Part shown: in pieces, positions 8,665-37,939 of the stretch | Layout: every line of letters begins with the position of its first letter | Numbering within the stretch: the first letter of the stretch is position 1 | Source: Enterobacteria phage AH67C600_Q5 | Sequence record: MZ833439.1 | Strand: one strand, 5' to 3' | Length of the DNA: 38,824 bases | Position numbers and translations under genes: made by a program | The notes under the pieces: model-generated | Databases searched by the model: none | Seen by the model: the letters and a program-made list of their open reading frames with translations, nothing else | Told to the model about the DNA's origin: nothing

Positions 8665-9084
8665 GTGGAGCTGCGGGAGAAAATCCTTGAGAGAGTCAAG
8701 GTGACTTCCGCTGGATGTTGGGAGTGGCAGGGTGCTACGAACAGTAAGGGATACGGACAGGTGTGGTGTAGTGACACCGGAAAGGTGGTGTACTGCCACC
8801 GAGTAATGTCTAATGCCACGAAAGGTTCTACAGTCCTGCACTCCTGTGATAATCCATTATGTTGTAACCCTGAACACCTATCCATAGGAACTCCAAAAGA
8901 GAACTCCGCCGACATGGTAAATAAGGGTCGCTCACACAAGGGGTATAAACTTTCAGATGAAGACGTAATGGCAATCATGGAGTCCAGCGAGTCCAATGCT
9001 TCATTAGCTCGTGCCTATGGTGTCTCCCAACAGACGATTTGTGATATACGCAAGGGGAGGAGATATGGCAGGCTACGGCGCTAA
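8665..9084 (+). CDS. 2.8: HNH homing endonuclease (T7 gene 2.8 position)
   Basis: 139-aa ORF, GTG start; HNH-type motif HSCDNPLCCNPEHL plus C-terminal HTH-like region; paralogous to ORFs at 11759, 18823 and 37496. Confidence 0.8.
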   Translation: MELREKILERVKVTSAGCWEWQGATNSKGYGQVWCSDTGKVVYCHRVMSNATKGSTVLHSCDNPLCCNPEHLSIGTPKENSADMVNKGRSHKGYKLSDEDVMAIMESSESNASLARAYGVSQQTICDIRKGRRYGRLRR

Positions 9085-9514
9085 AGGTATTCGAAAGGTT
9101 GGAGCGTTTCGCTCTGGCCTAGAGGACAAGGTTTCACAACAGTTGGAATCAAAAGGTATTAAATTTGAGTATGAAGAATGGAAAGTACCTTACGTAATTC
9201 CGGCGAGCAATCATACTTACACACCAGACTTCCTACTGCCCAACGGAATATTCGTTGAGACAAAGGGTCTGTGGGAAAGCGACGATAGAAAGAAGCACCT
9301 ATTAATAAGAGAGCAACACCCTGAGTTAGACGTTAGAATTGTCTTCTCAAGCTCACGTACCAAGTTATACAAAGGCTCTCCAACGTCCTATGGAGAGTTT
9401 TGCGAAAAGCATGGCATTAAGTTTGCTGATAAACTAATACCTGCTGAGTGGCTAAAGGAACCTAAGAAGGAGGTCCCCTTTGATAAATTAAGAAAGAAAG
9501 GAGGAAAGAAATAA
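9065..9514 (+). CDS. 3: Endonuclease I, Holliday-junction resolvase (gene 3)
   Basis: MAGYGAKGIRKVGAFRSGLEDKVSQQLESKGIKFEYEEWKVPY..., near-identical to T7 gp3; start refined to the internal ATG of track ORF 9011..9514. Confidence 0.93.
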   Translation: MAGYGAKGIRKVGAFRSGLEDKVSQQLESKGIKFEYEEWKVPYVIPASNHTYTPDFLLPNGIFVETKGLWESDDRKKHLLIREQHPELDVRIVFSSSRTKLYKGSPTSYGEFCEKHGIKFADKLIPAEWLKEPKKEVPFDKLRKKGGKK

Positions 9515-9969
9515 TGGCTCGTGTACAGTTTAAACCGCGTGAATCTACTGACGCAATCTTTGTCCACTGCTCGGCTACCAAACCAAGCCAGAATGTAGGT
9601 GTCCGTGAGATTCGTCAGTGGCATAAAGAGCAAGGTTGGCTTGATGTCGGGTATCATTTTATCATCAAGCGCGATGGCACTGTAGAGGAAGGTCGAGACG
9701 AGATGGCTGTAGGCTCTCACGTTAAGGGCCACAACCATAACTCCATCGGTGTCTGCCTTGTTGGTGGTATTGATGATAAAGGTAAGTTCGAAGCTAACTT
9801 TACGCCAGCCCAAATGCAATCCCTTCGCTCACTGCTTGTCACACTACTAGCTAAGTATGAAGGCGCTGTGCTGAAAGCCCATCACGATGTCGCACCTAAG
9901 GCTTGCCCTTCGTTCGACCTTAAGCGTTGGTGGGAGACGAACGAACTGGTCACTTCTGACCGTGGCTAA
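9514..9969 (+). CDS. 3.5: N-acetylmuramoyl-L-alanine amidase / T7 lysozyme (gene 3.5)
   Basis: 151-aa ORF MARVQFKPRESTDAIFVHCSATKPSQNVGVREIRQWHKEQGWLDVGYHF..., T7 gp3.5 homolog. Confidence 0.95.
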   Translation: MARVQFKPRESTDAIFVHCSATKPSQNVGVREIRQWHKEQGWLDVGYHFIIKRDGTVEEGRDEMAVGSHVKGHNHNSIGVCLVGGIDDKGKFEANFTPAQMQSLRSLLVTLLAKYEGAVLKAHHDVAPKACPSFDLKRWWETNELVTSDRG

Positions 9970-10008
9970 TTAATTGATTGTTCGCAACATTGATTAAGGA
10001 TTAACCAT

Positions 10009-35242: not shown

Positions 35243-35686
35243 ATGCTGGAATTTTTACGTAAGCTGGTCCCTTGGGTTCTCGCTGGGATGCTATTCGGAT
35301 GGGGATGGCAACTTGGGGCAGACTCAATGGACGCCAAGTGGAAACAGGAGGTACAGAATGAGTACGTTAAGAGAGTTGAGGCTACAGCGAGCACTCAAAG
35401 AGCACTCAATGAAATATCGGCTAAGTATCAAGAAGACCTTGCCGCGCTGGAAGGGAGCACTGATAGGATTATTTCTGATTTGCGTAGCGACAATAAGCGG
35501 TTGCTCGTCAGAGTCAAAACTACCGGAACCTCCGATGGTGAGTGTGGATTCGAGCCTGATGGTCGAGCCGAACTTGACGACCGAGATGCTAAACGTATTC
35601 TCGCAGTGACCCAAAAGGGTGACGCTTGGATTCGTGCCCTACAGGACACTATACGAGAACTACAGCATAAGCAGGAGGTTAAGTAA
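35243..35686 (+). CDS. 18.5: i-spanin (Rz-like, gene 18.5)
   Basis: 147-aa ORF with N-terminal TM segment ([15 protein letters not shown]) and coiled-coil periplasmic domain. Confidence 0.88.
35358..35609 (+). CDS. 18.7: o-spanin (Rz1-like, gene 18.7), embedded in the +1 frame of 18.5
   Basis: 83 aa from ATG 35358 with lipobox-like [13 protein letters not shown] and proline-rich segment; fully nested in gene 18.5. Confidence 0.75.
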   Translation: MSTLRELRLQRALKEHSMKYRLSIKKTLPRWKGALIGLFLICVATISGCSSESKLPEPPMVSVDSSLMVEPNLTTEMLNVFSQ

Positions 35687-37458
35687 TGAGGAAAGGTGTA
35701 TCCACTCAGTCCAATCGTAATGCGCTCGTTGTGGCGCAACTAAAGGGTGACTTCGTGGCGTTCCTGTTCGTCTTATGGAAGGCGTTAAACCTACCAGTGC
35801 CTACTAAGTGTCAAATTGACATGGCTAAGGTACTGGCGAATGGGGACAACAAGAAGTTCATCTTACAGGCTTTCCGTGGTATCGGTAAGTCATTCATCAC
35901 CTGTGCGTTCGTTGTGTGGTCCTTATGGAGGGACCCTCAGTTGAAGATACTTATCGTATCAGCTTCTAAAGAACGTGCAGACGCTAACTCCATCTTTATT
36001 AAGAACATCATTGACCTGCTACCGTTTCTCAGTGAGTTGAAGCCGAGACCCGGACAGCGTGACTCTGTGATTAGTTTTGATGTTGGTCCTGCTAGTCCTG
36101 ACCACTCGCCTAGTGTGAAATCAGTGGGTATCACTGGTCAGTTAACTGGTAGTCGTGCTGACATTATCATTGCGGATGACGTTGAGATTCCGTCTAACAG
36201 TGCTACTATGGGTGCCCGTGAGAAGCTATGGACTCTCGTTCAGGAGTTCGCTGCGTTACTTAAACCACTGCCTTCTTCTCGTGTTATCTATCTTGGTACA
36301 CCTCAAACTGAGATGACTCTCTATAAGGAACTTGAAGATAACCGTGGGTACACCACTATCATCTGGCCTGCTCTATACCCAAGGACACGCGAAGAGAACC
36401 TCTATTACTCACAGCGTCTTGCTCCTATGCTACGTGCTGAGTACGATGAGAACCCTGAGGCACTCGCTGGGACTCCTACGGACCCTGTGCGCTTCGACCG
36501 TGATGACCTCCGTGAGCGTGAGTTGGAATACGGTAAGGCTGGCTTCACACTACAGTTCATGCTTAACCCGAACCTGAGTGATGCCGAGAAGTACCCTCTG
36601 AGGCTCCGTGACGCTATCGTAGCGGCCTTAGACTTAGAGAAGGCACCAATGCATTACCAATGGCTTCCGAACCGTCAGAACATCATTGAGGACCTTCCTA
36701 ACGTGGGCCTTAAGGGTGACGACCTGCATACATACCATGAGTGCTCAAATAACTCTGGTCAGTATCAACAGAAGATTCTGGTCATTGACCCTAGTGGTCG
36801 CGGTAAGGATGAAACAGGTTACGCTGTACTGTACACCCTCAACGGTTATATCTACCTTATGGAAGCTGGAGGTTTCCGTGATGGCTACTCCGATAAGACT
36901 CTTGAGATGCTCGCTAAGAAAGCTAAGCAATGGGGAGTCCAGACGGTTGTCTACGAGAGTAACTTCGGTGATGGTATGTTTGGTAAGGTATTCAGTCCTA
37001 TCCTTCTTAAACACCACAACTGCGCGATGGAGGAGATTCGTGCTCGTGGTATGAAGGAGATGCGTATTTGTGATACCCTTGAGCCAGTCATGCAGACTCA
37101 CCGCCTTGTCATTCGAGATGAGGTCATTCGGGCAGACTATCAGTCCGCTCGTGACATAGACGGTAAGCATGACGTTAAGTATTCACTGTTCTACCAGATG
37201 ACTCGTATCACTCGTGAGAAAGGTGCTCTGGCCCACGATGACCGATTGGATGCCCTTGCGTTAGGCGTTGAGTATCTCCGTGAGTCCATGCAGTTGGATT
37301 CCGTTAAGGTCGAAGGTGAAGTGCTTGCTGACTTCCTTGAGGAACACATGATGCGTCCTACAGTTTCTGCTACCCACATCATTGAGATGTCTGTAGGAGG
37401 AGTTGATGTGTACTCTGAGGACGATGAAGGGTACGGTACGTCTTTCATTGAGTGGTGA
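35686..37458 (+). CDS. 19: Terminase large subunit / DNA maturation protein B (gene 19)
   Basis: 590-aa ORF; T7 gp19 homolog with ATPase and nuclease domains. Confidence 0.96.
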
Positions 37459-37495
37459 TTTATGAGGCCAAGGAAGGCCGCTTTAAGGAGGTAAT

Positions 37496-37939
37496 ATGAT
37501 AAGCAAGAAGAAGTATGTTATCGATAAGGAGACTGGTTGCTGGAACTTTAGGGGATGTAAGACGAAGACTGGTTATGGTCGCATTCGTGTGAACGGAGTC
37601 CATTGGATGGCCCACAGGTATTCCCTGAGTTGTCATCTAGGCAGACCGATAGCTGACGGAATGGTTGTGATGCACCTATGTGATAATCCTTCATGTGTTA
37701 ACCCTGAGCACCTTAAGGAAGGGACTCAGAAGGAGAACATAGAGGACTGCATCTCAAAAGGTCGTGCAACTAAGTCCACAGGTAAACGTGATGCAACTAA
37801 GAGAGACCCTAGCGAGGAACGTAAGGCTATAGTGATTCGAAGATACCATAAAGGCTGGACCGCAACGTCCATAGCGAGATACCATAAGCTCTCTGTGGCG
37901 TGGGTAAAGAGGGTCATTGAGGATTACCTAAGTGATTGA
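37496..37939 (+). CDS. HNH homing endonuclease between gene 19 and phiOR
   Basis: 147-aa ORF with RBS aaggagg; MHLCDNPSCVNPEHL motif and C-terminal HTH-like region; paralog of the 8665, 11759 and 18823 ORFs. Confidence 0.85.
   Translation: MISKKKYVIDKETGCWNFRGCKTKTGYGRIRVNGVHWMAHRYSLSCHLGRPIADGMVVMHLCDNPSCVNPEHLKEGTQKENIEDCISKGRATKSTGKRDATKRDPSEERKAIVIRRYHKGWTATSIARYHKLSVAWVKRVIEDYLSD

What the first reader, a model, noticed from the sequence alone, without database searches (positions are those of the whole stretch)
8665..37939. Six HNH homing-endonuclease genes, three apparently inserted relative to T7
HNH ORFs occur at 8665 (gene 2.8 position), 11759 (between phi4.3 and gene 4.3), 15215 (intron), 18823 (gene 7.7 position), 25748 (between genes 13 and 14, Endo VII-like) and 37496 (between gene 19 and phiOR). 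Four share the motif CDNPxCxNPxHL plus a C-terminal HTH-like tail and look paralogous. Meanwhile the positions of T7 genes 3.8 and 5.3 are empty. This is a heavy load of selfish nucleases for a genome of under 39 kb, and they occupy essentially all non-T7 sequence in the window.
Basis: partly seen in the sequence, partly recalled or inferred. Interest (0 to 1): 0.45.

Follow-up and report, generated by a model that had tools for sequence, protein, structure and literature searches.

The report
Six homing-endonuclease genes in T7-like phage

Summary

- **Identity.** The window is Enterobacteria phage AH67C600_Q5 (GenBank MZ833439.1, 38,824 bp, published 2023). It is about 91% identical to T7.
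- **The six ORFs.** All six are intact nucleases. Five are HNH_3 paralogues with C-terminal HTH-like tails. One is an Endonuclease VII (DHHRN-type) protein.
- **Relative to T7.**
  - Gene 2.8 is orthologous (93% aa).
  - Gene 7.7 is a divergent allele in the same slot (51% aa).
  - Four elements sit at sites that are empty in T7: between phi4.3 and gene 4.3, a 601-nt group I intron in gene 5, between genes 13 and 14, and between gene 19 and phiOR.
  - The T7 gene 3.8 and 5.3 slots are empty.
- **Precedent.** Every slot has one: 13a gp7.7 and gp19.4, the N30 endonuclease, phiYeO3-12 gp13.5. The intron enzyme is 85% identical to the named I-TslI of phage PhiI.
- **Distribution.** Occupancy is patchy among colinear genomes. 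The longest exact matches to relatives sit on the nuclease genes, as expected for homing.
- **Load.** Six is at the top of the range but not unique; pO111 and PDP351P2 also carry six.
- **Separate point.** The deposited sequence lacks about 1 kb. Several T7 promoters, most of capsid gene 10 and Tphi are missing, in a pattern that looks like vector-screen excision.

The parts
8665..9084 (+). Gene 2.8 homologue: free-standing HNH_3 endonuclease with a C-terminal HTH-like tail (139 aa, GTG start). It overlaps the start of gene 3.
   Evidence: 93% aa identity to T7 gp2.8. PHROG HNH endonuclease at 1.4e-30. Pfam HNH_3 at 24.3 bits, just under the 24.8 cut-off. The slot is empty in 13a, N30 and HZP2. 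The adjacent gene 3 allele is T7-type (about 91%) but only 63-77% identical to those phages and to pO111.
11730..11752 (+). T7-type promoter phi4.3, here driving the inserted nuclease gene and then gene 4.3.
   Evidence: TAATACGACTCACTAAAGGAGAT. In genomes without the insert, the same promoter sits directly before gene 4.3.
11759..12187 (+). Free-standing HNH_3 plus HTH endonuclease (142 aa) inserted between phi4.3 and gene 4.3 ('4.25' slot). Its stop overlaps the gene 4.3 ATG at 12171.
   Evidence: Pfam HNH_3 at 5.9e-12, with HTH_23 and HTH_28 below cut-off. Absent from T7. The same insert is present in N30, C5, LNA7, Bas102 and JB01 only, 6-7 of 115 records. The junction and the linked variant 3' end of gene 4 are shown. 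Annotated as UAW06981.1.
13171..15129 (+). DNA polymerase gene 5, exon 1 (653 codons). It ends in U after His653.
   Evidence: Colinear with T7 up to T7 16311. The unspliced frame stops 21 nt into the intron.
15130..15730 (+). Group I intron (601 nt) in gene 5, between His653 and Asp654 of motif C. It carries the nuclease ORF in a peripheral loop.
   Evidence: Rfam RF00028 full-length match at 35.4 bits, E 2.8e-7, below the gathering score of 50. A U.G pair closes P1 and the 3'-terminal base is G. Removal restores a 704-aa gp5 that is 698/704 identical to T7. The same insert is in about 30 phage records. Phage 13a annotates gene 5 as a join.
15215..15610 (+). Intron-encoded HNH_3 homing endonuclease (131 aa), likely orthologue of I-TslI.
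   Evidence: Pfam HNH_3 at 6.6e-17. In the same 90% cluster as I-TslI of phage PhiI (AAV53690.1) and 85% identical to it. 48% identical to free-standing T3 gp5.3.
15731..15886 (+). DNA polymerase gene 5, exon 2 (51 codons plus stop).
   Evidence: Colinear with T7 16312-16467.
18823..19218 (+). Gene 7.7 slot: free-standing HNH_3 plus HTH-like endonuclease (131 aa). It is a divergent allele. Its ATG overlaps the gene 7.3 stop and its stop overlaps the gene 8 ATG.
   Evidence: Pfam HNH_3 at 3.9e-16. 51% aa identity to T7 gp7.7. About 97% nt identity to 13a and PGX1 only, 3 of 174 records. The slot is empty in HZP2, N30 and the metagenome contigs. The first ~35 nt shown of gene 8 fall into two haplotypes that follow presence or absence of 7.7.
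25748..26062 (+). Free-standing Endonuclease VII / DHHRN-type nuclease (104 aa) inserted between genes 13 and 14 ('13.5' slot). Its ATG overlaps the end of gene 13.
   Evidence: Pfam Endonuclease_7 at 2.4e-27. Motif C48xxC51 ... D65-H66-S-H68 ... R74 ... C78xxC81-N82, read from the translation. Matches the catalytic domains of Hpy99I and T4 Endo VII. No DNA match in any of 178 phage records that match the flanks. The best phage proteins are 57% identical, including phiYeO3-12 gp13.5; contig coordinates suggest most best hits occupy the same slot. 96% identical proteins occupy the same slot in two metagenomic T7-like contigs. Annotated as UAW07004.1.
37496..37939 (+). Free-standing HNH_3 plus HTH_23 endonuclease (147 aa) between gene 19 and phiOR ('19.4' slot).
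   Evidence: Pfam HNH_3 at 9.5e-9 and HTH_23 at 27.4 bits, above its cut-off. Absent from T7. Present in 29 of 180 records, including 13a gp19.4. The protein is identical to that of HZP2. It lies in a 764-bp exact match to HZP2, the longest in the genome.
37991..38013 (+). Promoter phiOR, one mismatch to the T7 consensus.
   Evidence: TAATTCGACTCACTATAGGGAGA.
9970..10008 (.). Empty gene 3.8 slot between gene 3.5 and gene 4.
   Evidence: T7 11170-11585 has no counterpart. The junction is shared with N30, pO111 and LNA7, except that the window lacks a further 32 bp, the promoter/leader-like stretch.
15887..15905 (.). Empty gene 5.3 slot between gene 5 and gene 5.5.
   Evidence: T7 16469-16833 has no counterpart. 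The empty junction has the same structure in 13a, HZP2, N30 and pO111. T7 holds a PD-(D/E)XK gene there and T3 an HNH gene.

Best explanation
The six ORFs are homing-endonuclease genes, that is, selfish mobile DNA resident in a T7-like phage genome.

**Expression.** All six lie on the + strand within the T7-RNA-polymerase transcription units, and each has its own ribosome-binding site.

**Proposed mechanism (inferred, not shown here).**
1. During mixed infection with a related phage that lacks a given gene, the nuclease recognises a long, degenerate site at or near the empty slot in the rival genome.
2. It nicks or cuts that DNA.
3. T7-type recombinational repair copies the nuclease gene, together with adjacent sequence, from the carrier genome into the rival.
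4. The carrier escapes cutting because the insert, or linked sequence differences, disrupt the site.

**The individual elements.**
- **Five HNH_3 enzymes.** These are I-HmuI-like His-Me-finger enzymes with a C-terminal helix-turn-helix tail for DNA binding.
[quoted passage not shown] RNA splicing restores an intact polymerase, so the insertion costs the phage nothing. This is the I-TslI/PhiI intron system.
- **The sixth enzyme.** It uses the Endonuclease VII (DHHRN) catalytic motif and occupies the gene 13/14 junction, as gp13.5 does in T3-like phages.

**Shown here:** domain identity, intact motifs, precise junctions, patchy distribution, and recent exchange of the segments.
**Inferred:** cleavage activity, the target sites, and homing itself.
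For: **Domain identity.** Pfam and PHROG assignments. The profile of the alignment of all six proteins (five HNH_3 plus the Endo VII-type) hits I-HmuI, PDB 1U3E. The Endo VII ORF hits the catalytic domains of Hpy99I and T4 Endo VII.

**Insertion at sites empty in T7.** Clean junctions, each carrying its own RBS.

**Patchy occupancy among otherwise colinear genomes.**
- 4.25 insert: 6-7 of 115 records.
- Intron: about 30 of 455.
- This 7.7 allele: 3 of 174.
- 13.5 insert: 0 of 178.
- 19.4 insert: 29 of 180.

**Variable load.** Nuclease gene counts range from 1 to 6 across nine genomes, using different slots.

**The intron.**
- Full-length RF00028 match, E 2.8e-7.
- U.G pair at the 5' splice site and a terminal G.
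- In-silico splicing gives a 704-aa gp5 that is 99% identical to T7.
- The enzyme is 85% identical to I-TslI and 48% to free-standing T3 gp5.3.
- The PhiI and W31 introns are cited as the first group I introns described in T7-like phages, with the HEG in P6a, in PMC3428280.
- Bonocora & Shub 2009 (PMID 19200727, reference seen) reported homing by I-TslI and T3 gp5.3. I am citing its content from memory, because the paper was not held.

**Recent lateral exchange.** The backbone is about 92% identical to HZP2. The two longest exact matches to HZP2 are 764 bp spanning the 19.4 gene and 639 bp spanning the intron. The longest exact match to 13a spans the 7.7/gene 8 junction. The second longest match to N30 spans the 4.25 gene.

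**Flank haplotypes that follow occupancy.** These are seen at the gene 8 5' end (7.7), the gene 4 3' end (4.25), the gene 3 allele (2.8), and as synonymous exon changes around the intron site.

**Endo VII as a homing enzyme.** Endo VII-motif proteins in podoviruses that also encode T7 endonuclease I were placed in the endonuclease clade rather than the resolvase clade, and the DHHRN homing family was defined, in PMC6083498. The window encodes a T7-type gene 3.
Against: - No cleavage, homing or splicing was tested for this phage. Target sites are only suggested by linked haplotypes, which ordinary linkage could also produce.
- The intron scores below the Rfam gathering threshold (35.4 vs 50 bits). 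This is probably because of the 400-nt ORF inserted in a loop.
- High-identity tracts to HZP2 also occur away from the nuclease genes, for example at 12911-13370 and 19620-20023. Mosaicism is therefore not confined to the nuclease genes.
- Gene 2.8 is fixed in many T7 relatives and could be domesticated or inactive.
- The occupancy-linked haplotypes rest on only 5-8 genomes.
Confidence: 0.85

Rival explanations
1. Some of the nucleases are domesticated parts of the phage life cycle rather than selfish elements. In particular, the HNH gene beside terminase gene 19 could assist DNA packaging, as the HK97 gp74 HNH protein does. This is the idea raised in the paper that published this genome.
For: - The 19.4 gene lies immediately downstream of the large terminase gene.
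- The authors of PMC10194157 speculate along these lines, citing Kala et al. 2014.
- PMC10448857 notes that homing and packaging roles are not mutually exclusive.
Against: - T7 itself and about 150 of 180 matching relatives lack the gene and still package normally.
- The domain is HNH_3 plus HTH, as in homing enzymes and as in its four paralogues elsewhere in the genome. It is not the HK97-type HNH.
- The gene sits in a 764-bp exact match to a phage that is otherwise about 92% identical, which points to recent lateral transfer.
- From general knowledge, T7 packaging uses terminal repeats and gp18/gp19 without an HNH cofactor.
Confidence: 0.05
2. The Endonuclease VII-like ORF between genes 13 and 14 is a junction-resolving or repair enzyme, a functional analogue of T4 gp49, and not a homing endonuclease.
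For: - Pfam Endonuclease_7 at 2.4e-27, and a match to the T4 Endo VII catalytic domain.
Against: - The phage already has a T7-type endonuclease I, gene 3.
- The protein is 104 aa with the catalytic motif in its C-terminal half. It has no counterpart of the T4 C-terminal dimerisation domain; the match covers T4 residues 10-70 only.
- PMC6083498 places podovirus proteins of this type in the endonuclease clade.
- The gene is absent from all 178 phage records that share the flanks.
- The best PDB hit is the sequence-specific enzyme Hpy99I.
Confidence: 0.07
3. Some or all of the ORFs are decaying relics: nuclease genes that once homed but are now inactive passengers with no current mobility.
For: - The homing cycle predicts degeneration after fixation.
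- Gene 2.8 scores just under the Pfam cut-off and is widespread in T7 and its close relatives.
- Nothing here measures activity.
Against: - All six reading frames are full length, with intact catalytic and zinc-binding motifs.
- Several are nearly identical to copies in divergent backbones. That argues for recent movement and against long neutral decay.
Confidence: 0.1

Closest known systems
[quoted passage not shown]
   Same: - The insert is in gene 5 motif C, and the nuclease ORF sits in a peripheral loop.
- The enzyme is 131 aa and 85% identical to I-TslI. It is 48% identical to T3 gp5.3.
- The gene 5.3 slot is empty, as in other intron-bearing phages.
   Different: - There is 15% aa divergence from I-TslI.
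- Splicing and homing are untested for this phage.
- The intron was not recognised in the paper or in the record. The record annotates the ORF as a hypothetical protein, and the paper never mentions an intron.
T7 gp2.8 and gp7.7, and 13a gp7.7 and gp19.4 (free-standing HNH_3 genes of Teseptimavirus)
   Same: - Same slots and same domain layout.
- gp2.8 is 93% identical to T7.
- The 7.7 allele is about 97% nt identical to 13a.
- gp19.4 is identical to the HZP2 protein, and the same slot holds gp19.4 in 13a.
   Different: - The 7.7 protein is only 51% identical to T7 gp7.7, so it is an allelic replacement.
- As far as I know, none of these free-standing T7-group enzymes has a mapped cleavage site.
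The endonuclease between genes 4 and 4.3 in Escherichia phages N30, C5 and JB01
   Same: Same insertion point between phi4.3 and gene 4.3. Identity is 88-98% nt, and the same variant 3' end of gene 4 is linked to it.
   Different: It is rare (6-7 of 115 records) and uncharacterised.
phiYeO3-12 gp13.5 and related 'endonuclease VII' genes of T3-like and Klebsiella podoviruses; the DHHRN family typified by F-CphI
   Same: - Same slot between genes 13 and 14 as phiYeO3-12 gp13.5.
- Same CxxC...DHxH...R...CxxCN motif.
- The phage also encodes endonuclease I.
   Different: - Only 57% aa identity to any isolated-phage protein.
- This allele is otherwise seen only in metagenomic T7-like contigs, at 96%.
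- F-CphI itself was not compared directly.
I-HmuI (PDB 1U3E), the HNH nicking homing endonuclease of the phage SPO1 DNA polymerase intron
   Same: It is the only solved structure hit by the profile of the aligned proteins. The match covers the His-Me finger region.
   Different: The similarity is weak (E 0.0018). The DNA-binding tails differ. Whether the window's enzymes nick or make double-strand cuts is unknown.

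Membership tests
HNH (His-Me finger) homing endonucleases, HNH_3 / I-HmuI type | Catalytic beta-beta-alpha-metal motif with conserved His ... Asn ... His/Asn, plus the cysteine cluster. | tested here: met
   Pfam HNH_3 is above its cut-off for four of the five proteins and 0.5 bit below for 8665. The motif H-x-C-(D/R)-N-x-x-C-x-N-x-x-H-L is intact in all five. The profile hits I-HmuI.
HNH (His-Me finger) homing endonucleases, HNH_3 / I-HmuI type | A separate DNA-binding module that gives a long recognition site. 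| tested here: inconclusive
   HTH_23 is above its cut-off only in the 37496 protein. HTH hits in the 11759 and 8665 proteins are below cut-off. The tails align with one another and show an HTH-like pattern. No structure was predicted.
HNH (His-Me finger) homing endonucleases, HNH_3 / I-HmuI type | Presence/absence polymorphism at a fixed locus among otherwise colinear genomes. | tested here: met
HNH (His-Me finger) homing endonucleases, HNH_3 / I-HmuI type | Site-specific cleavage of the allele lacking the gene, and super-Mendelian inheritance with co-conversion of flanks. | not testable with these tools
   There are only indirect signs. The longest exact matches to relatives centre on the nuclease genes, and flank haplotypes follow occupancy.
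Group I self-splicing intron (Rfam RF00028) | Conserved catalytic core (P1-P9) recognised by the covariance model. | tested here: inconclusive
   A full-length match to model positions 1-253 at E 2.8e-7, but 35.4 bits is under the gathering score of 50. There was no hit in the default gathering scan.
Group I self-splicing intron (Rfam RF00028) | The 5' exon ends in U paired with G in P1, and the intron ends in G. | tested here: met
   The exon ends ...GUGCAU at 15129 and pairs with AUUGUGCAC. Position 15730 is G.
Group I self-splicing intron (Rfam RF00028) | Precise removal restores the host reading frame. | tested here: met
   Joining 13171-15129 to 15731-15886 gives a 704-aa protein, 698/704 identical to T7 gp5, with VHDE motif C intact.
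Group I self-splicing intron (Rfam RF00028) | Self-splicing in vitro or in vivo. | not testable with these tools
   The PhiI and W31 introns are cited in PMC3428280 as the first group I introns described in T7-like phages. Their self-splicing is stated in the title of Bonocora & Shub 2004 (reference seen). That paper was not held.
I-TslI orthologue | High sequence identity to I-TslI and the same intron location in gene 5. | tested here: met
   Same 90% cluster as I-TslI and 85% identity over all 131 residues. The ORF lies in the gene 5 intron. The PhiI intron DNA itself was not available for comparison.
Endonuclease VII-motif (DHHRN) homing endonucleases | Motif CX2-4C ... D-H-x-H ... R ... 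CX2C-N, as defined in PMC6083498. | tested here: met
   C48xxC51, D65-H66-S67-H68, R74 and C78xxC81-N82, read from the translation. Pfam Endonuclease_7 at 2.4e-27.
Endonuclease VII-motif (DHHRN) homing endonucleases | Catalytic motif in the C-terminal part of the protein, and a separate resolvase encoded by the same genome. | tested here: met
   The motif spans residues 48-82 of 104. A T7-type endonuclease I gene 3 is present.
Endonuclease VII-motif (DHHRN) homing endonucleases | Demonstrated site-specific cleavage or homing. | not testable with these tools
   The only evidence is patchy distribution. It is in 0 of 178 phage records at this slot by DNA, and in two metagenome contigs at the same slot.
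HK97 gp74-type packaging HNH | Conserved and required partner of terminase, present throughout the phage group. | tested here: not met
   The 19.4 gene is absent from T7 and from about 150 of 180 related records. Its domain is HNH_3 plus HTH.

The most novel reading that the evidence does not exclude
The most novel reading that my evidence does not exclude concerns target sites and cross-genus movement.

- **Target sites.** The sequence variants that follow occupancy may mark the actual recognition or immunity sites of free-standing T7-group nucleases. These variants are the first ~35 nt of gene 8 (7.7), the last ~45 nt of gene 4 (4.25) and the whole gene 3 allele (2.8).
- **Cross-genus movement.** The Endo VII-type gene at the 13/14 junction may be a distinct lineage that homes into the same slot across genera (Teseptimavirus, T3-like phages, Klebsiella podoviruses).

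If both hold, this genome would be a convenient natural donor carrying six different homing systems. It could be used to map how selfish nucleases shape mosaicism in the best-studied phage group.
Probability: 0.3. Interest if true: 0.35.

Novelty: already known. Interest (0 to 1): 0.15.

Why it matters
This matters little as a discovery.

- **The genome is public.** It is MZ833439.1, described in PMC10194157.
- **The ORFs are partly annotated.** Four of the six are already annotated as HNH or endonuclease VII.
- **Every slot and family has precedent** in T7-group phages. One of them is the named I-TslI intron system.

The analysis has some practical value.
- It corrects the published reading of this genome. 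The HNH genes are homing elements and not packaging helpers.
- Gene 5 is interrupted by an unrecognised group I intron, so the polymerase is not truncated.
- The reported 'small, low-related capsid protein' is most likely an artefact, because vector-like sequence was cut out of the deposit.
- It provides a small occupancy map of homing-nuclease slots in Teseptimavirus. That map could guide mixed-infection experiments.

Tried and rejected
- **Rfam gathering scan of the whole window.** It gave no hit. The intron appeared only with the permissive E-value scan of 15050-15800.
- **Exact-sequence look-up of the Endo VII protein in assemblies.** Nothing was on record. The homologue search then found a 96% relative with context.
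- **IMG/VR scan for the Endo VII protein.** Only distant relatives turned up, at most 53% identity.
- **Bonocora & Shub 2004 and 2009.** Neither paper is held in the library. Their content is cited from memory and from secondary citations.
- **HK97-type packaging role for the 19.4 gene.** Rejected on distribution and domain type.
- **Resolvase role for the Endo VII ORF.** Rejected as the main reading because gene 3 is present and on the domain layout.
- **Whether the empty 3.8 and 5.3 slots were caused by the same excision artefact as gene 10.** Rejected. The empty junctions are shared with N30, pO111, LNA7, 13a and HZP2. The 3.8 site did additionally lose a 32-bp promoter/leader-like stretch.
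- **The long ORF 11594-12187.** It merely reads in frame from the tail of the gene 4.2 frame (DUF5480 hit) into the nuclease. The ATG at 11759, with its RBS just after phi4.3, is the likely start.

Full report
**What the window is.** The window aligns colinearly to phage T7 at about 91% identity, and to many Teseptimavirus genomes at 89-92%. An exact look-up of the six proteins shows that they are the annotated products UAW06977-UAW07013 of Enterobacteria phage AH67C600_Q5, on a contig of 38,824 bp. The phage was isolated from pig-farm sewage on E. coli C600. It was deposited as MZ833439.1 and published in Virus Res 2023 (PMC10194157). The sequence is opened near the left end of the T7 map and carries one copy of the terminal-repeat region near its right end.

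**Checking the observation.** All six ORFs exist at the stated coordinates.
- Pfam gives HNH_3 for 11759-12187 (E 5.9e-12), 15215-15610 (6.6e-17), 18823-19218 (3.9e-16) and 37496-37939 (9.5e-9).
- Pfam gives Endonuclease_7 for 25748-26062 (2.4e-27).
- The ORF at 8665-9084 is 0.5 bit under the HNH_3 cut-off. It hits PHROG 'HNH endonuclease' at 1.4e-30 and is 93% identical to T7 gp2.8, which passes the cut-off.
- The five HNH_3 proteins are mutually significant by BLASTP at 27-45% identity. They share the core H-x-C-(D/R)-N-x-x-C-x-N-x-x-H-L and a C-terminal tail with a helix-turn-helix pattern.
The 18823 protein has Ile in place of the second Pro.
- Only the 37496 tail passes a Pfam HTH cut-off.
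- A profile of the aligned proteins hits I-HmuI (1U3E). The Endo VII-like protein hits the catalytic domains of Hpy99I and T4 Endo VII.

**Position relative to T7.**
- *Gene 2.8.* It is orthologous and colinear.
- *Gene 7.7.* It occupies the same slot, but the DNA does not align and the protein is 51% identical. It is the 13a/PGX1 allele, at about 97% nt, in 3 of 174 records.
- *Elements at sites empty in T7.* There are four.
  - 11727-12162 lies between promoter phi4.3 (11730-11752) and gene 4.3.
  - 15130-15730 lies inside gene 5.
  - 25742-26052 lies between genes 13 and 14.
  - 37465-38081 lies between gene 19 and phiOR (37991-38013).
- *Empty slots.* T7 genes 3.8 and 5.3 have no counterpart. 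The empty junctions are natural, because N30, pO111 and LNA7 (3.8 site) and 13a, HZP2, N30 and pO111 (5.3 site) share them.
- *Share of non-T7 sequence.* The nuclease-associated segments make up about 2.3 kb of the roughly 2.8 kb that does not align to T7.
- *Coding share.* The six ORFs account for 2,400 nt, or 6.2% of the window.

**The intron.**
- The 601-nt insert interrupts gene 5 between His653 and Asp654 of polymerase motif C.
- The unspliced frame stops 21 nt into the insert.
- Joining 13171-15129 to 15731-15886 gives a 704-aa protein that is 698/704 identical to T7 gp5.
- The exon ends in U, which pairs with G in a P1 helix, and the insert ends in G.
- Rfam's group I model matches end to end (positions 1-253) at E 2.8e-7, with the ORF as one large loop insertion. 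The score of 35.4 bits is under the gathering score of 50, and the default scan missed it.
- The encoded protein falls in the same 90% cluster as I-TslI of phage PhiI and is 85% identical to it. It is 48% identical to the free-standing HNH gene 5.3 of T3, which sits just downstream of an intronless gene 5.
- PMC3428280 cites the PhiI and W31 introns as the first group I introns described in T7-like phages, with the HEG in P6a.
- From memory, Bonocora & Shub 2009 (PMID 19200727, reference seen) showed that I-TslI and T3 gp5.3 cut intronless polymerase genes at the same position.
- About 30 phage records carry the same insert. Phage 13a annotates gene 5 as a join with an embedded endonuclease.
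- The paper on AH67C600_Q5 never mentions an intron.

**The other inserted genes.**
- *The 4.25 gene.* It is shared at 88-98% nt with N30, C5, LNA7, Bas102 and JB01 only, 6-7 of 115 records.
- *The 19.4 gene.* It is in 29 of 180 records, is annotated gp19.4 in 13a, and is identical in protein to HZP2.
- *The Endo VII gene.*
  - It is the rare one. None of the 178 phage records that match its flanks has it at the DNA level.
  - The best proteins from isolated phages are 57% identical. They include phiYeO3-12 gp13.5 and many Klebsiella podovirus 'endonuclease VII' genes. gp13.5 is in the same slot by name, and contig coordinates suggest most of the others are too.
  - Proteins 96% identical are found in the same slot in metagenomic T7-like contigs. 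IMG/VR holds only relatives at 53% or less.
  - Its sequence carries C48xxC51, D65-H66-S-H68, R74 and C78xxC81-N82. This is the DHHRN pattern defined for F-CphI.
  - The motif lies in the C-terminal half, and the genome also encodes T7-type endonuclease I. PMC6083498 uses those features to separate homing or restriction enzymes from resolvases.

**Signs of mobility.**
- The junctions are clean, and each insert brings its own ribosome-binding site.
- Genome-wide identity to HZP2 is about 92%. The two longest exact matches to HZP2 are 764 bp across the 19.4 gene and 639 bp across the 5' exon, intron and start of the nuclease ORF.
- The longest exact match to 13a spans the 7.7/gene 8 junction. 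The second longest to N30 spans the 4.25 gene.
- Flanking variants follow occupancy.
  - The first ~35 nt of gene 8 fall into two haplotypes that match presence or absence of any 7.7 gene.
  - The last ~45 nt of gene 4 differ between carriers and non-carriers of the 4.25 gene.
  - Synonymous changes cluster around the intron site.
  - The gene 3 allele is T7-type only where a T7-type 2.8 is present.
- These patterns fit co-conversion or immunity variants, but they rest on a handful of genomes. High-identity tracts also occur elsewhere.

**Is the load unusual?** An iterative profile search of all ORFs in nine genomes gave these counts:

| Genome | Nuclease genes |
|---|---|
| Window | 6 |
| pO111 | 6 |
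| PDP351P2 | 6 |
| 13a | 4 |
| HZP2 (partial genome) | 4 |
| LNA7 | 4 |
| T7 | 3, plus the PD-(D/E)XK gp5.3 |
| N30 | 2 |
| T3 | 1 |

Other phages use further slots. These include one around genes 0.4-1 in HZP2, and in pO111 one between genes 18 and 18.5 and one near gene 1.3. Six is therefore the top of a known range and not an outlier.

**Mechanism and rivals.** The best reading is ordinary homing. A nuclease made by the carrier cuts or nicks the empty allele of a co-infecting relative, and recombinational repair copies in the gene and its flanks. The intron copy rides on RNA splicing. This is inferred from family membership and distribution, and no activity was measured.
- The published suggestion of an HK97-like packaging role is unlikely. 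T7 and most relatives lack the gene, and the domain is the homing type.
- A resolvase role for the Endo VII ORF is unlikely for the reasons given above.
- Relic status cannot be excluded. Intact motifs and near-identical copies in divergent backbones argue against it.

**A separate point about the sequence itself.**
- Relative to T7 and to closer relatives, the window cleanly lacks the following:
  - the consensus promoters phi6.5, phi9, phi13 and phi17, as gaps of 26-31 bp;
  - a 32-bp promoter/leader-like stretch at the 3.8 site;
  - T7 22880-23763, which is phi10 plus most of capsid gene 10;
  - T7 24106-24216, which is Tphi.
- In gene 10, only short patches of low similarity to T7 remain.
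- Every missing promoter segment corresponds to an exact run of at least 23 nt shared with the T7 phi10 promoter/leader. Every retained promoter shares 20 nt or less.
- From memory, these are the T7 pieces carried by pET and T7Select vectors. The pattern looks like removal of vector-screen hits before deposition. The methods in the paper do not mention such a step.
- The true genome is probably about 1 kb longer.

**Verdict.** The features are of known kinds at known positions in a published genome, so interest is low.

Noticed in passing
window 21823-22273; also the gaps at 10000, 17576/17577, 20824/20825, 25303/25304 and 32884/32885: The deposited sequence cleanly lacks the consensus promoters phi6.5, phi9, phi13 and phi17, a 32-bp promoter/leader-like stretch at the 3.8 site, phi10 plus most of major capsid gene 10, and terminator Tphi. 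Every missing promoter piece shares an exact run of at least 23 nt with the T7 phi10 promoter/leader, while every retained promoter shares 20 nt or less. This looks like excision of vector-screen (pET-like) hits and not biology. No intact capsid gene remains, and the true genome is probably about 1 kb longer.
   Followed up: yes
window 21977-22168 (published 'small major capsid protein'): The paper describing this phage (PMC10194157) interprets the gene 10 remnant as replacement of gp10A/10B by a small, weakly related capsid protein. It also suggests the extra HNH genes might improve packaging. It does not mention an intron in gene 5. All three points are better explained by the excision artefact, by homing endonucleases and by a group I intron.
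   Followed up: partly
window 9011-9514 (gene 3, endonuclease I): The gene 3 allele is T7-type (about 91% nt) but only 63-77% identical to 13a, HZP2, N30 and pO111, although the flanking genes are 90-95% identical. The split follows presence of the T7-type gene 2.8. This suggests a 2.8-linked haplotype, possibly containing that nuclease's target or immunity site.
   Followed up: partly
window 11594-11758: The reading frame of the gene 4.2 tail (Pfam DUF5480 hit) runs without a stop through promoter phi4.3 into the inserted HNH ORF. This gives a 197-aa mechanical ORF. The stop-to-stop frame begins only at 11555, so a full-length gene 4.2 does not seem to be present.
   Followed up: no
L008 (pO111) 3407-3826 and 32498-33016; L010 (PDP351P2) 5771-6274 and 17761-18333; L005 (HZP2) 6024-6467: Related Teseptimavirus genomes carry HNH or Endo VII genes in further slots not used in the window. 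These include pO111 between genes 18 and 18.5 and near gene 1.3, and HZP2 between gene 0.4 and gene 1; PDP351P2 has two extra Endo VII-type ORFs whose slots were not determined. Two of these genomes also total six. The genus therefore has at least ten distinct nuclease insertion sites.
   Followed up: partly
L002 and L003 (metagenomic T7-like contigs), around 2200-2520 and 490-810: The two metagenomic contigs that share the 13.5 Endo VII gene have an empty 7.7 slot (gene 7.3 is followed directly by gene 8). They also retain a full gene 10. This makes them useful natural comparators for both the 7.7 junction and the gene 10 artefact.
   Followed up: partly
window 33501-34600 (gene 17 distal half): The distal part of the tail-fibre gene is closer to T3 and 13a (95-97%) than to T7 (82-88%). 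It has no good match in N30, pO111 or the metagenome contigs. This mosaic host-range module is unrelated to the nuclease genes.
   Followed up: no
window 1265-1456, 6691-6878 and 7285-7347: Several small early and middle T7 genes are missing or shortened relative to T7: the 0.5/0.6 region, gene 1.4 and part of gene 1.7. This is ordinary accessory-gene variation in the group.
   Followed up: no
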